Program-made: the position numbers
From: Escherichia coli
Lineage (GTDB): Bacteria; Pseudomonadota; Gammaproteobacteria; Enterobacterales; Enterobacteriaceae
Reading direction: 5' to 3' (one strand)
DNA: 64,000 nucleotides
NCBI RefSeq assembly: GCF_024298765.1
Contig: NZ_CP101210.1
Shown: positions 18,001 through 21,000 of the stretch, piece after piece
Numbering within the stretch: the first letter of the stretch is position 1
Layout: every line of letters starts with the position of its first letter

Positions 18001-21000
18001 GATCCAGTTCCGGCAGTAACTGACGATAAAGCGCTCGGTATTCCTGATCATGCTGCGGTGTTTCACCAATGCCGGGCAGATCGACCAGCGTCATTCTGCG
18101 TTCACCGAGCTGCAGGGTAAGACGATGAGCCTGGCGGGTGCAGCCGTTCAGGGGATGCGTGGCGCAGATACGGGACTGAAAAATGGCATTACACAGGCTG
18201 CTCTTGCCGGTGCCGGATTTACCCATAATGCCAATCACGGGCTCGTAATGAATAACACCGTGGAGATGTTCAAGGATTTTCTGGCGTATTTCTTCAGGAA
18301 GAAACGTCAGATATGATTTCACTTGCGCGGAGAGGGAAGAATTGCTGAATGGCATACCGGTATCCTGTTGATTTCACTGAACCGGATCACACTAATCCGG
18401 TTTATCATTCAGGTAATATGGGTGTGAAAATTTTTCCATTGACGGGAAGAAGAGTATGGCTAAAAACAAAGGTATTTGTCGGAATAAAAAATGCAGTAAT
18501 CCTGTTTCAGAATTTGATGAGGCAAATGCCTTAAGGTTATGCGATGATCATTATAAGCTATGGAAGCGAAATAAAGAGAATCGTCGGGTCAGGAATATTT
18601 GTCGTATAATCAGTAAATATGACAAAAGTCTGGACCGGGAGATATTTTATGGAGTAAGAGATGCTGCAAAAAATAAAACGGGAAAGAGAATTATTGAGGA
18701 CGCAAAAATATTACATCAATGCCGTGCCTCAAAGCAAGTAAGAAAAAGTTTTCACAAGGGTGTGCTTCGGTCACGGGAATGGCTTAATACACAGGAGTTA
18801 CTGAGCAGAAAACATATATCTGTTACAGGTGAACTATTTAAATTTTACATAAAAGATATTATCAGATTATATTGCTATAAGTTTCTCTACAGCAGAGAAT
18901 ATCTTAATGAAAACGCATACAAAAAACGATATCAGAGTGATATTCACCCCAGAAAAGTTAATGTTCCGATACTGCAACTTGAAGTTGCATGGATAAATAA
19001 TAATTGCCGTTCAAGTGATTCAAGCACTGATATTATTATCCTTCCGAGGATGATAAGAAGAATGGTTGTATTTAATTATACGAAGATAAATAAACAATTA
19101 GAGAAATTGTTAGGGGGGATAGCACGAAAACAAACCTCAGAAAGGAATAAAGGCGGTCTCTATACCAGAATAAAAAAAGAAAGTGACTTTCTTTCTATGG
19201 ATAGATTTATGGTGGAAATAGAAAATATCATAAGGCCTGAAAGGTTTCCGACATCAATTTATCCAGTCTTTTCACATTCATTTATTGAACGAGAGCTTCC
19301 GCTACTGAATCTTGCTCGATCACAGTATAAAAGAGCAATAAGTAAAAAAGTGGCGAATTCAATTTTTTATACTTTGCAAAAAACTAACGTAGCATTATGG
19401 CTACATCTTGAAATGTTTGCTCTGGTGGCATTCATTAAACTGTATACAGGAAAAGGTTTTGAATTCATAAAAAACATGTGTGCATTTATCGATTATAATA
19501 ATGGGATAATAAAATCCACACATGAAGAACTACTGGGTGAAATTAAGCATAACATTCAGGTTAATTTGAAGGTGAACCCTGATAATTTTCCTGAGCTAAT
19601 AAATATATACAATTCATGTTTTAGTAAAAATATATTTTTATATGATATTAATGATGGTAATTTTAAATGGTGTTCATGATTCTAAAATAGCAAATTCATA
19701 TTGCATATTAATTATCAACAAAAAACACATAATAAAATTTCAATAAGTTACCTGCTAATGGTGCTGATGATCCGCCAGTTTAGTATGGTTATATGATTTG
19801 ATGGTTAATGCTTACAGATAATCACACTTTCTTATGAATAGTATAAATGAGCATGCCATAGTCGTTTGTTCAGAGATAAAATTTACTGAATGAGCTTATG
19901 TTGTGGTTATCTGTACTTACCGGATACGACGACTTATATTCCTCACATTATATGGCTTAACTTTTCTGGGGTAAAGCGATGGAGTTACAGACGCTGATTA
20001 CGATGGTTTACTGTCTCGTTATCACGGGATTTCTGCTGTACTGAATACGTGAACAGGAAAATAACTCCAGAGTAAATCTGCTCTGTTTTTAGGACAGAAA
20101 ACTCCATGCTGGCTGTAAAAGTGAAAAATTAACACCCAGTATGTATGGAAGTCTGAAGATGTTGAGAATGTCGGTATGATACTATATACACGTATTTTAC
20201 TAAGTATTTTTACTAAGCATTTCAGTAAGTGTTATACACGTATTTTCTACTAAGTGTTTTACCAGACATACACGTATTTTCATAAACACTTCTACAAGTG
20301 TTTTCGTTAAGCATTGCTATACACATCCAGTTTAGTAAATCTTTACGTTAACTAAATCAGTTTAATGCTGCTGTAAAACCTTTCTGTTTAAGCAATCAAT
20401 CTGCTATTCGATTTTACTGATGTTACGTTTAACCTTTCCTTAGATTTCGAGTTTCGACGTTAGCTTGAGAAAAGTATCTTTACGTAAAGCCCAGTGAATT
20501 AACTCAAATCCGATTGAGGTAACCTGATGCGATTTACTGTGAGTTTGCGATAACACTGTTAAATGGCTTATGGATGATTTTGTAACGGCGAGATTGATAA
20601 GGTGATTAACTGGCCCTGGTGTTTTTTCTCAGCGTAAGGTGATTATCTTCATCATAAGGCTCTTTTCAGAAAAAGTGTGATGATTGGTTGTGGTGTTTTG
20701 ATTCAGATGAGGATCTGCCAATGATTATGATGTATTGTAAGAAATAACGCCTTCAGAATGTTGGAGCATGCACTTACACAAACTGTTTTTCTAAAATTAA
20801 GGGAACAGTTTAAAGAGTATAAACTGTTCATCTTCTTCAGGATTAAGCTACATTGTTGTTATGACTGACAGGATTGTTTTCTTCCCCTGACTCTGGGCTT
20901 AACAGTCCCTGGCGTTGTAGATATTCACTGACTGACATTCCAGAACTACGGATCCTGTCAGAGATTTTACGAAATTGATCCTTCCATTCTGCAGGTAATT

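What the first reader, a model, noticed from the sequence alone, without database searches (positions are those of the whole stretch)
18456..19679. Orphan 407-aa AT-rich gene with zinc-ribbon-like N-terminus beside the island GTPase gene
A long, clean ORF in DNA far more AT-rich than its neighbours, divergently transcribed from the YfjP-like GTPase gene. The product opens with C-x4-C...C-x2-H (CRNKKCSNP...LCDDH), is Lys/Arg-rich, and matches no family I recognise. In CP4-57-type elements the slot next to the GTPase holds variable cargo (rnlAB in K-12), so this may be a single-gene anti-phage or addiction function.
Basis: partly seen in the sequence, partly recalled or inferred. Interest (0 to 1): 0.62.

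Follow-up and report, generated by a model that had tools for sequence, protein, structure and literature searches.

The report
Nuclease-dead HNH protein in hypervariable island slot
The AT-rich 407-aa gene is real and not an orphan: it is a very divergent relative of HNH DNA-cutting enzymes that has lost its cutting residues, and it fills a slot in a common family of E. coli genomic islands where three deeply different versions of the same protein alternate between otherwise near-identical flanks; what it does is still unknown.

Summary
There is a clean 407-aa ORF at 18456-19679 (+). Its GC is 0.33, against 0.50-0.57 for its neighbours. It is transcribed divergently from a YfjP-like GTPase gene, its N-terminus has an invariant C-x4-C…C-x2-H motif, and the protein is strongly basic (pI 9.8).

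"Orphan" is wrong. The gene is intact in 967 of 5,426 complete E. coli genomes, and it belongs to an unannotated, Enterobacterales-restricted family that always lies in CP4-57-type islands.

The slot is hypervariable, but it does not hold random cargo. Flanks 97-99 % identical in DNA enclose three allele groups of this one family that share under 20 % protein identity (1,068, 815 and 514 places, against 2,506 adjacent GTPase genes). dN/dS is about 0.3.

The function is unknown. My best guess is a non-cleaving nucleic-acid-binding specificity factor. A defence role is neither supported nor excluded.

The parts
18456..19679 (+). Protein-coding gene, 407 aa (WP_001107214.1). It is a basic, AT-rich, divergent and catalytically degenerate member of the HNH family.
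   Evidence: ORF. RefSeq CDS. Intact in 967 of 5,426 complete E. coli genomes. dN/dS 0.28-0.33. Family alignments A1, A2 and A5.
18456..18560 (+). N-terminal CCCH zinc-finger region (residues 1-35; C8, C13, C29, H32). Also conserved here: A23, N24, R27 and Y33.
   Evidence: The four ligand residues are invariant in every family member that has an N-terminus. This is the best-conserved segment within the clade, with mean identity 0.50. pLDDT is 76-88. Metal binding itself is inferred.
18747..19115 (+). Central HNH-like (His-Me finger) domain, residues 98-220. The beta-beta-alpha core covers residues 173-205 (nt 18972-19070). Trp179, Asp192 and Arg201 occupy the positions of the catalytic His, the structural Asn and the metal-binding Asn.
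19152..19676 (+). C-terminal helical domain (residues 233-407). Family-invariant residues are P282, L286, R293, E319, Y385 and N386 (the YNSxFS motif). No known fold matches it.
18431..20055 (+). Hypervariable 'allelic cassette': the gene with its own ribosome-binding site plus 376 bp of 3' non-coding DNA. Other E. coli islands have different family alleles here, between conserved flanks.
   Evidence: blastn breakpoints are at window 18430/18431 and about 20044-20057. Flanks are 96.9 % and 98.8 % identical to L022, which carries a 320-aa allele plus a 284-aa gene. Loci L021-L023 and L028.
18356..18430 (.). Shared divergent intergenic/promoter region, which lies in the conserved flank rather than in the cassette. 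It has a palindrome AACCGGAT-N7-ATCCGGTT (18380-18402) and a conserved GGTAATATGG box (18412-21; -10-like TAATAT at 18414-19).
   Evidence: Sequence. Alignment with L002, L004 and L005: the GGTAATAT(A/G)G box is invariant, and the palindrome keeps its symmetry with a different sequence in L004. The box is retained in L010, which lacks the GTPase gene. It lies inside the 96.9 %-identical flank. Promoter function is inferred; the consensus scan did not flag it.
17471..18355 (-). YfjP-like GTPase gene (294 aa), the constant neighbour of the family. It is not part of the variable cassette.
   Evidence: NCBIfam Era/Der-type GTPase hits. It is adjacent to the family member in 16 of the 20 distinct loci examined. 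It is absent from L010, L011 and L024, and L007 ends in an IS. Orientation is divergent for clades A and C and co-directional for clade B.
20068..20085 (+). Terminator-like hairpin (CAGAGTAAATCTGCTCTG followed by TTTTT) at the start of the conserved right flank. It is a plausible 3' end for the cassette transcript.
   Evidence: Consensus scan only. Function was not tested.

Best explanation
The gene encodes a real, selectively maintained protein of a previously unannotated family. The family is restricted to Enterobacterales and descends from HNH (His-Me finger) endonucleases.

The architecture is an N-terminal CCCH zinc finger, a basic helical linker, an HNH-type beta-beta-alpha domain, and a family-specific C-terminal helical domain.

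One clade, found in Klebsiella, Citrobacter, Salmonella and Enterobacter islands, keeps the full H…N…N catalytic motif with canonical spacing. In the window's clade all three residues are replaced (His to Trp/Phe/Tyr, Asn to Asp, Asn to Arg), and the replacements are themselves conserved. The E. coli protein is therefore most likely a non-cleaving, nucleic-acid-binding derivative, i.e. a pseudo-nuclease.

The gene sits at a fixed position in CP4-57-type integrative islands, directly 5' of the YfjP-like GTPase gene. In non-E. coli relatives it heads a co-oriented alpA-yfjJ (excision activator / HUH Rep-like) gene string.

In E. coli this position is a sharply bounded cassette driven from a shared promoter region. 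At least three deeply diverged alleles of the same family are kept there at comparable frequencies. This pattern is typical of specificity or conflict determinants.

My proposed mechanism is that the protein binds, without cutting, a DNA or RNA structure or sequence, or a partner bound to one, and so acts as the island's variable recognition module. The setting could be helper or competitor recognition, exclusion, or defence/counter-defence.

Shown: gene reality, family membership, HNH ancestry, loss of the catalytic residues, slot conservation, allelic hypervariability, purifying selection.

Inferred: zinc binding, lack of nuclease activity, nucleic-acid binding, the promoter, and the biological role.
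For: Real gene:
- Intact in 967 of 5,426 genomes.
- dN/dS 0.28-0.33, against 0.18-0.21 for the GTPase gene and 0.33-0.40 for yfjJ.

Family:
-; alignments.

HNH ancestry:
- Clade B carries the motif LEV[CS]H-x-YPNSKGGAN-x3-NL-x-I-x-P-x2-INR.
- hhalign of clade B against an HNH mini-alignment gives P 4.7e-4 in that register. The McrA segment of the mini-alignment was validated against 6ghc.
- tblastn and hhalign link clade B to two IMG/VR ORFs: E 5e-5, and probability 90.6 %, E 1.3e-6.
- Those ORFs are bona fide HNH proteins: PHROG E 3e-15 and 1.6e-21; Pfam HNH_4, HNH_5 and HNH E 3e-8 to 1e-6.
- AF2 on the fragment gives pLDDT 82.

The window protein is homologous, and the register is fixed:
- hhalign A2 against A6 gives probability 100 %, E 4.7e-58.
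- Its own model has the beta-beta-alpha element at 175-219.

Catalytic residues replaced:
-.

Basic protein:
-.

Fixed slot across 22-37 % identity, while neighbours stay 47-78 % identical:
-.

AT-richness is maintained in all clades that lack the His (GC 0.28-0.37):
-.

Allelic cassette:
-.
- 1,068 + 815 + 514 = 2,397 places, against 2,506 GTPase places.

Not found in phages or plasmids:
-.
Against: - There is no functional data of any kind, and no paper mentions the protein.
- Loss of nuclease activity is inferred from residue identity only. E176 and D192 are conserved acidic residues and could in principle support a non-canonical active site.
- hhalign of the window clade directly against HNH sequences is weak (P 0.035).
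- No allele-specific DNA site was found. The palindrome and the iteron-like repeats lie in the conserved flanks, not in the cassette.
- The claim that all slot occupants are family members rests on four inspected loci plus summed counts. It is not a genome-by-genome tally.
Confidence: 0.5

Rival explanations
1. This is the first reader's idea: a single-gene anti-phage defence or abortive-infection effector. The zinc-finger/HNH-like module would sense or bind invading nucleic acid, and the C-terminal domain would execute the response. Allelic diversity would reflect an arms race with phages.
For: - Hypervariable alleles lie between conserved flanks, as in the defence hotspots of mobile elements.
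- Three alleles are kept at balanced frequencies.
- The protein evolves faster than its backbone neighbours.
- The islands carry defence cargo nearby.
- CP4-57 itself has rnlAB and abpAB next to yfjP.
- The neighbouring GTPase has a weak LeoBC-like C-terminal match (PADLOC E 1.6e-7).
Against: - None of the four alleles tested hits a PADLOC model.
- The slot only ever holds this one family, unlike true hotspots.
- The nuclease residues are lost.
- Gene-wide dN/dS is 0.3, with no sign of positive selection.
- In non-E. coli islands the gene heads the alpA-yfjJ string, which looks like island life-cycle genes.
Confidence: 0.2
2. An island-encoded DNA-binding regulator or 'immunity' factor. It would control the divergent GTPase and alpA-yfjJ promoters, acting as a master switch for excision and replication in the way phage repressors or SaPI Stl do. 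Alleles would define hetero-immune island types.
For: - The gene is divergently transcribed across a 100-bp spacer that carries a palindrome and a conserved -10-like box.
- The protein is a basic zinc-finger protein.
- It is the first gene upstream of alpA-yfjJ in relatives.
- Allelic diversity at a fixed position resembles immunity regions.
Against: - The intergenic region, with its palindrome, lies in the conserved flank. It is 96.9 % identical between islands that carry unrelated alleles, so operator and protein do not co-vary.
- The repeats in the 3' flank are likewise shared by all alleles.
- At about 400 aa with an HNH-derived core, the protein is atypical for a repressor.
Confidence: 0.12
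3. It is still an active nuclease or nickase with a non-canonical active site (for example E176/D192 with metal). It would work in island replication or transfer initiation, or as a toxin.
For: - E176 and D192 are conserved acidic residues on the beta-hairpin.
- The clade-B relatives look catalytically competent, and they occur in islands without yfjJ. This suggests a DNA-processing role for the ancestral protein.
Against: - Every characterised His-Me finger nuclease uses a His as general base. This is established knowledge of the family, and I did not test it here. At this position clade A has Trp, Phe, Tyr or Lys, clade C has Lys, and the aligned residue in the two other E. coli alleles compared is Glu or Gln.
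- The metal-binding Asn is Arg or Lys.
Confidence: 0.1
4. A decaying free-standing HNH homing-endonuclease gene. On this view it is a selfish insert that reached this intergenic site, lost activity, and persists without contributing a function.
For: - It has HNH ancestry and is AT-rich relative to its flanks.
- It sits between conserved genes with sharp boundaries, and catalytic residues are lost in several lineages.
Against: - Intact ORFs of about 400 aa are maintained across 17-37 % identity, with conserved non-catalytic motifs and conserved replacement residues.
- dN/dS is about 0.3.
- No pseudogenised copies appeared among the sampled rows.
- No empty sites were seen.
Confidence: 0.05

Closest known systems
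HNH / His-Me finger endonucleases. Examples: Pfam HNH PF01844 and its relatives HNH_4 and HNH_5, phage GVE2 HNH 5H0O, EcoKMcrA 6GHC, and the HNH domains of Cas9 and IscB.
   Different: The window protein has Trp, Asp and Arg in place of His, Asn and Asn. It lacks the two CxxC pairs that usually flank the finger; a Pro sits where the third Cys would be. It has instead a separate N-terminal CCCH finger and a 175-aa helical domain specific to the family. No Pfam, NCBIfam or PHROG HNH model detects any member.
Free-standing HNH homing endonuclease genes of phages (such as I-HmuI and the T4 mob genes)
   Same: An HNH-derived, AT-rich gene sits in an intergenic position between conserved genes of a mobile element, with sharp sequence boundaries.
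   Different: Here the catalytic residues are lost, yet the ORFs are under purifying selection. Three deep alleles coexist, and no empty target sites were seen. The family is absent from 50,697 phage genomes.
Variable defence hotspots of CP4-57 and P4-like elements (for example rnlAB and abpAB next to yfjP in K-12)
   Same: A variable segment lies next to the GTPase gene, between recombining conserved flanks.
   Different: This slot is filled only by members of one protein family, and none has a PADLOC hit. Unrelated defence cargo lies elsewhere, beyond yfjJ.
Allele-specific modules of phage-inducible chromosomal islands (SaPI Stl repressors and Rep-ori cassettes). This comparison comes from my own knowledge.
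   Same: A fixed position in an integrase- and alpA-bearing island is occupied by highly diverged variants of one function.
   Different: No allele-specific iterons or operators were found in the cassette. There is no sequence or fold relationship. These islands have not been shown to be phage satellites.

Membership tests
HNH / His-Me finger superfamily (by fold and descent) | A beta-beta-alpha metal-finger fold | tested here: met
HNH / His-Me finger superfamily (by fold and descent) | Detectable sequence relationship to recognised HNH proteins | tested here: met
   For clade B: hhalign P 4.7e-4, and probability 90.6 %, E 1.3e-6, against an ORF that PHROGs recognises as HNH/endonuclease VII; a second IMG/VR ORF matched at the same core (tblastn E 5e-5) is Pfam HNH_4/HNH_5/HNH. 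For the window clade directly the signal is only P 0.035, so membership is transitive. Pfam HMMs themselves do not hit.
Active HNH endonuclease | The general-base His in strand beta-1 | tested here: not met
   The position is Trp179 in the window protein. It is Trp, Phe, Tyr or Lys across clade A, whereas all nine clade-B sequences have His.
Active HNH endonuclease | The structural Asn (+14) and the metal-ligand Asn/His (+23) | tested here: not met
   The window protein has Asp192 and Arg201, and both are conserved within clade A. Clade B has Asn and Asn.
Active HNH endonuclease | Metal-dependent DNA cleavage | not testable with these tools
   This needs a biochemical assay.
Zinc-ribbon / treble-clef zinc finger | Four conserved Cys/His ligands with suitable spacing | tested here: met
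   C8, C13, C29 and H32 are invariant in all 22 sequences that have an N-terminus. Actual zinc binding and the fold class were not tested.
Known anti-phage defence systems (PADLOC-DB v2) | A match to a model of a known or candidate defence protein | tested here: not met
   The window protein and three other alleles or partners match no family at E <= 0.1.
Variable cargo of a mobile-element hotspot | Unrelated genes alternate at the same site between conserved flanks | tested here: not met
   Sequences do alternate. The occupants, however, are homologues of one family. Allele counts sum to 2,397 of 2,506 slots.
Toxin-antitoxin / addiction module | A two-gene toxin plus antitoxin arrangement | tested here: not met
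   The window cassette holds a single gene followed by 376 bp with no ORF over 42 aa. The finger-less alleles do have a convergent partner of 267-284 aa with unknown function, so this is inconclusive for those alleles.
Homing endonuclease gene | Presence/absence polymorphism with empty target sites, plus an active nuclease | tested here: not met
   No empty site was seen in five inspected loci. The catalytic residues are lost. The survey is not exhaustive.
Reverse transcriptase (the UniRef name of homologue P0016) | RT palm motifs or a Pfam RVT match | tested here: not met
   No Pfam hit for any of the 14 members scanned. No RT among the fold hits. The name appears to be an automatic label.

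The most novel reading that the evidence does not exclude
The family would be a new kind of island-encoded specificity module: a nuclease-dead HNH zinc-finger protein whose deeply diverged alleles are kept by balancing selection. Each allele would recognise a different external partner. That partner could be a helper phage's terminase/HNH packaging machinery or a competing element's DNA. Alternatively the protein would be a nuclease-independent, single-gene anti-phage system. On either reading, the CP4-57-type 'cryptic prophages' carried by roughly a third of E. coli genomes would be active players whose host range or defence spectrum is set by this one slot.
Probability: 0.25. Interest if true: 0.8.

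Novelty: new variant of a known kind. Interest (0 to 1): 0.55.

Why it matters
CP4-57-type islands are among the commonest accessory elements of E. coli and its relatives. The adjacent GTPase allele is present in 1,871 of 5,426 complete genomes. Even so, their backbone genes are almost all of unknown function.

This work gives a fold and an evolutionary origin (HNH) to a gene that had been labelled hypothetical in every record. It also shows that the gene has lost its catalytic residues but is still under selection.

The position is a dedicated hypervariable locus with three balanced, deeply diverged alleles. Such a pattern usually marks recognition or conflict functions. That yields concrete experiments: allele swaps, phage or plasmid challenge, DNA binding, and 'resurrection' of the catalytic triad. 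These experiments could show what these islands do.

The family is missing from Pfam, NCBIfam, PHROGs and PADLOC, so a new family model could be built for it.

Tried and rejected
1. Direct library searches with the window protein found nothing. This covers Pfam, NCBIfam, PADLOC, PHROGs, and PDB sequences searched with the family profiles (alignments headed by the window protein).

3. Foldseek against AFDB50 returned only 24 uncharacterised relatives. The 'Reverse transcriptase' label on one of them is unsupported.

4. The protein has no homology to YfjH, YfjI or YfjW of CP4-57 itself.

5. I considered a tyrosine-recombinase or PD-(D/E)xK reading of the conserved R/E/Y residues. I dropped it because the spacing and order do not fit and no such fold hit appeared.

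6. I considered a Rep-plus-iteron cassette like the SaPI rep-ori module. The TACACGTATTTT repeats lie in the conserved flank shared by all alleles, and the cassette's own 3' region has no iterons.

7. I considered an autoregulatory repressor with an allele-specific operator. The palindrome lies in the conserved flank.

8. A 19-nt inverted repeat (18943-18961 and 19957-19975) is rarer than chance in shuffles (fraction 0.015). It is not conserved between alleles.

9. Rfam found nothing meaningful in 16000-23000.

10. Searches of phages, plasmids and IMG/VR with the window clade found no relatives.

11. Literature searches found no paper on the protein or the family.

12. I could not test, with these tools, whether co-resident islands in one genome avoid carrying the same allele.
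Full report
**1. The observation**

The ORF listing finds a 407-aa ORF at 18456-19679 on the + strand, starting MAKNKGICRNKKCSNP…. A purine-rich Shine-Dalgarno-like run lies at 18444-18454.

The composition contrast is real. The gene has GC 0.325 and GC3 0.27. The divergent GTPase gene (17471-18355, - strand) has 0.54/0.55, the WYL regulator 0.50/0.54 and DUF932 0.57/0.65.

The protein is strongly basic: pI 9.76, K+R 18.2 %, net charge about +32.

RefSeq annotates it as WP_001107214.1, 'hypothetical protein'. It lies in an island that abuts yicL and also carries ireA.

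Pfam, NCBIfam, PADLOC and PHROGs give no hit. A PDB sequence search with the family profiles (alignments headed by the window protein) also gives none.

**2. Not an orphan**

The gene is present over at least 80 % of its length in 967 of 5,426 complete E. coli genomes. Every sampled row, including UPEC 536, annotates it as an intact CDS.

Between E. coli alleles that differ by 3-10 % in DNA, dN/dS is 0.28-0.33. The GTPase gene gives 0.18-0.21 and yfjJ 0.33-0.40. The gene is therefore under purifying selection.

A word-indexed search of 5.8 billion proteins and an exhaustive phmmer search of 1.84 billion representatives find a small family. Its members are 22-37 % identical and come from Klebsiella, Citrobacter, Atlantibacter and metagenomes. 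A profile built from the most divergent members adds further branches from Klebsiella, Citrobacter, Salmonella and Enterobacter.

All members are named 'hypothetical' and none has a Pfam domain. The only exceptions are a few automatic UniProt labels, 'HNH endonuclease' and one 'Reverse transcriptase'.

Only 3 of 100,044 species-representative genomes contain a relative detectable with the two peptide patterns used. No relative occurs in 50,697 phage genomes or 72,556 plasmids.

**3. Fold and origin**

AlphaFold2 with a 14-sequence alignment gives a usable model (pLDDT 79, pTM 0.67). From the N-terminus it has a small finger, long helices of low confidence, a beta-beta-alpha element (E175-179, E193-197, H198-219), and a confident helical C-terminal domain.

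The key came from the 24-sequence alignment. One clade, which I call B (P0063, P0067, P0114, P0117, P0120-123, P0126), reads LEV[CS]H-x-YPNSKGGAN-x3-NL-x-I-x-P-x2-INR at exactly this element. That is the HNH signature.

I tested this reading in four ways:

- **(a) Profile-profile comparison.** hhalign of clade B against a mini-alignment of classical HNH domains gives P 4.7e-4 in the predicted register. The McrA segment of that mini-alignment was validated against PDB entry 6ghc at E 8e-35.
- **(b) Transitive link.** Scanning IMG/VR with clade B recovered two short ORFs that match only the motif. PHROGs recognises them as HNH/EndoVII (E 3e-15 and 1.6e-21). Pfam recognises the L027 ORF as HNH_4, HNH_5 and HNH (E 3e-8 to 1e-6). 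hhalign of clade B against the L026 ORF gives probability 90.6 %, E 1.3e-6, with 43 % identity over 35 columns.
- **(c) Weak model hits.** Two clade-B proteins weakly hit the NCBIfam Cas9d model over this same stretch of the protein (E about 0.1).

The window's clade (A) is homologous to clade B over 366 columns (hhalign probability 100 %, E 4.7e-58). That alignment, like the MAFFT one, puts Trp179 on the catalytic His, Asp192 on the structural Asn and Arg201 on the metal-binding Asn.

The residue table is clean:

| Clade | Sequences | His position | Asn (+14) position | Asn (+23) position |
|---|---|---|---|---|
| B | 9 | H | N | N |
| A (window clade) | 11 | W/F/Y/K | D | R |
| C (Klebsiella, 383 aa) | 4 | K | Q/K | K |

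All characterised His-Me finger nucleases use this His as the general base. That statement is established knowledge of the family, and I did not test it here. On that basis the window protein is very probably not an HNH nuclease. The replacement residues are themselves conserved, which points to a repurposed site that is still functional.

The N-terminal C8/C13/C29/H32 set is invariant in every member that has an N-terminus. Clade B has an additional CxYC…YCSxxC motif.

**4. Genomic setting**

In every non-E. coli locus of clades A and C the order is: …CbtA/CbeA-RadC-antirestriction-DUF932-(WYL)-GTPase on one strand, then a spacer of about 97-100 bp, then this gene, alpA and yfjJ on the other strand.

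In clade B the gene is co-directional and immediately upstream of the GTPase gene. The order is int-(small genes or a DUF3987 helicase)-gene-GTPase-….

Adjacency to the GTPase gene is therefore kept in both architectures. Three loci lack the GTPase gene: L010, L011 and L024.

The neighbours are 47-78 % identical between these islands, whereas this protein is 22-37 % identical. In all loci of the His-less clades the gene has GC 0.28-0.37, beside neighbours of 0.39-0.60. The His-bearing gene in L013 has GC 0.41. The AT trough is therefore an old, maintained property. It is not a mark of recent acquisition.

**5. A hypervariable allelic slot**

A search with the GTPase gene plus spacer finds 2,506 places in 1,871 E. 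coli genomes. Many of the matches stop at query position 960, which is window 18430.

I inspected four such loci. Where the window has its 407-aa gene, they have a 310-320-aa gene with a convergent 267-284-aa gene, or a 376-aa gene.

blastn puts the left breakpoint at 18430/18431. That is 25 bp before the ATG, and downstream of the palindrome and the conserved GGTAATATGG box. The right breakpoint lies at about 20044-20057. The flanks are 96.9 % and 98.8 % identical to L022.

The replacements are not unrelated cargo. The 376-aa protein matches the family profile over its full length, CCCH finger included (probability 99.6 %, E 2e-24). The 320-aa protein matches residues 96-372 (probability 97.2 %, E 4e-11). 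The convergent partner is unrelated and unrecognised.

The three allele groups occupy 1,068, 815 and 514 places. Together that is 2,397 of the 2,506 GTPase places. I saw no empty site.

The unrelated defence cargo of these islands (type I R-M, TIR, Dnd) lies beyond yfjJ or on the far side.

**6. Interpretation**

Shown:
- The gene is real and under constraint.
- It belongs to a new, unannotated family.
- The family descends from HNH nucleases.
- The catalytic triad is lost in the window's clade.
- The position in CP4-57-type islands is fixed.
- At least three deeply diverged alleles exist between recombining flanks.

Inferred:
- The protein binds zinc and nucleic acid but does not cleave.
- It is expressed from the shared divergent promoter region.
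- It serves as a variable recognition module.

Deep, balanced allelic diversity with purifying selection inside each allele is the signature of specificity or conflict determinants such as immunity, exclusion, defence or helper recognition. For that reason I favour a recognition role over a housekeeping island function.

I could not find the recognised target. The palindrome and the TACACGTATTTT repeats lie in the conserved flanks. This argues against a simple allele-specific operator or Rep-iteron model.

A non-canonical nuclease activity cannot be excluded without biochemistry. A functionless homing-endonuclease relic is unlikely, given the constraint on the ORF.

**7. Novelty and score**

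The fold is known. The family is new to all the libraries I searched. It is catalytically degenerate, and it has an unusual population structure at a dedicated slot in very common islands. I rate it a new variant of a known kind, with interest 0.55. It is a concrete, testable lead into the biology of CP4-57-type elements, but it comes without a demonstrated function.

Noticed in passing
window 20056-20710: A conserved AT-rich non-coding flank, 75-99 % identical in all E. coli alleles examined. It carries three direct copies of TATACACGTATTTT (20185, 20233, 20267) and other short repeats. In non-E. coli relatives alpA sits roughly where this region lies. It may be an origin, an oriT, a regulatory region or a decayed alpA locus.
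   Followed up: partly
window 20711-21865 (176-aa gene at 20843-21373, - strand): This segment is an indel inside the conserved flank. It is present in the window and L022 (same protein, WP_000778605.1) and absent from L019, L020, L021 and L023. The protein has no family match apart from a weak PHROG 'D5-like transcriptional regulator' hit (E 0.003). A 10-bp-stem hairpin at 20803-20829 follows the gene.
   Followed up: partly
window 18380-18402 and 18412-18421: The palindrome AACCGGAT-N7-ATCCGGTT and an invariant GGTAATAT(A/G)G box lie in the GTPase/gene spacer. The palindrome keeps its symmetry with a different sequence in a Citrobacter island (ATCCTGGC…GCCAGGAT). This suggests an operator, perhaps for the WYL regulator. 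The consensus promoter scan did not flag it.
   Followed up: partly
L021 6921-7730, L022 6950-7804, L028 6515-7318: The finger-less alleles of 310-320 aa always come with a convergent gene of 267-284 aa and unknown function. It has no Pfam hit at E <= 0.001 and no PADLOC hit. It may supply a function that the N-terminal finger provides in the other alleles.
   Followed up: partly
L011 (CACSKA010000007.1, labelled Chryseobacterium sp. 18061): This contig carries an enterobacterial-type island nearly identical to the one in L010 (Enterobacteriaceae bacterium RIT691); its DUF932 is 72 % identical to the E. coli one. The record is probably mislabelled or contaminated.
   Followed up: no
L010 and L011 9336-10000; L024 11772-12500: Three islands lack the GTPase gene beside the family member. 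In L010 and L011 a 680-bp non-coding gap precedes the WYL gene and no GTPase remnant is left. In L024 an MsyB-like acidic protein takes its place. The GTPase is therefore not strictly required next to the gene.
   Followed up: partly
window 17471-18355 (GTPase): The C-terminal third of the YfjP-like GTPase (residues 185-284) weakly matches the PADLOC LeoBC model (E 1.6e-7). LeoBC is a component of a dynamin-like defence system.
   Followed up: no
window 18943-18961 and 19957-19975: A 19-nt inverted repeat with one mismatch, with one arm inside the ORF and one near the cassette's right end. It is rarer than chance in shuffles (fraction 0.015). It is not conserved in the alleles of L019 and L020.
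   Followed up: yes
window 30095-30646 and 31596-31775: A second yfjJ-like gene and an alpA-like gene lie about 10 kb downstream, past IS2, ireA and other IS elements. The window therefore holds a mosaic of at least two island modules.
   Followed up: no
UniProt and AFDB names of homologues (A0AAX3CP38, A0AAW5Z6I9 and others): The automatic names disagree. 'Reverse transcriptase' has no support here. 'HNH endonuclease' turns out to be right about the fold, but it is misleading for the clades that have lost the catalytic residues.
   Followed up: yes
window 22466-22533: An Rfam PhotoRC-I match below its gathering score (24.3 bits against 45; E 0.006), inside the yfjJ coding region. It is most likely chance.
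   Followed up: no
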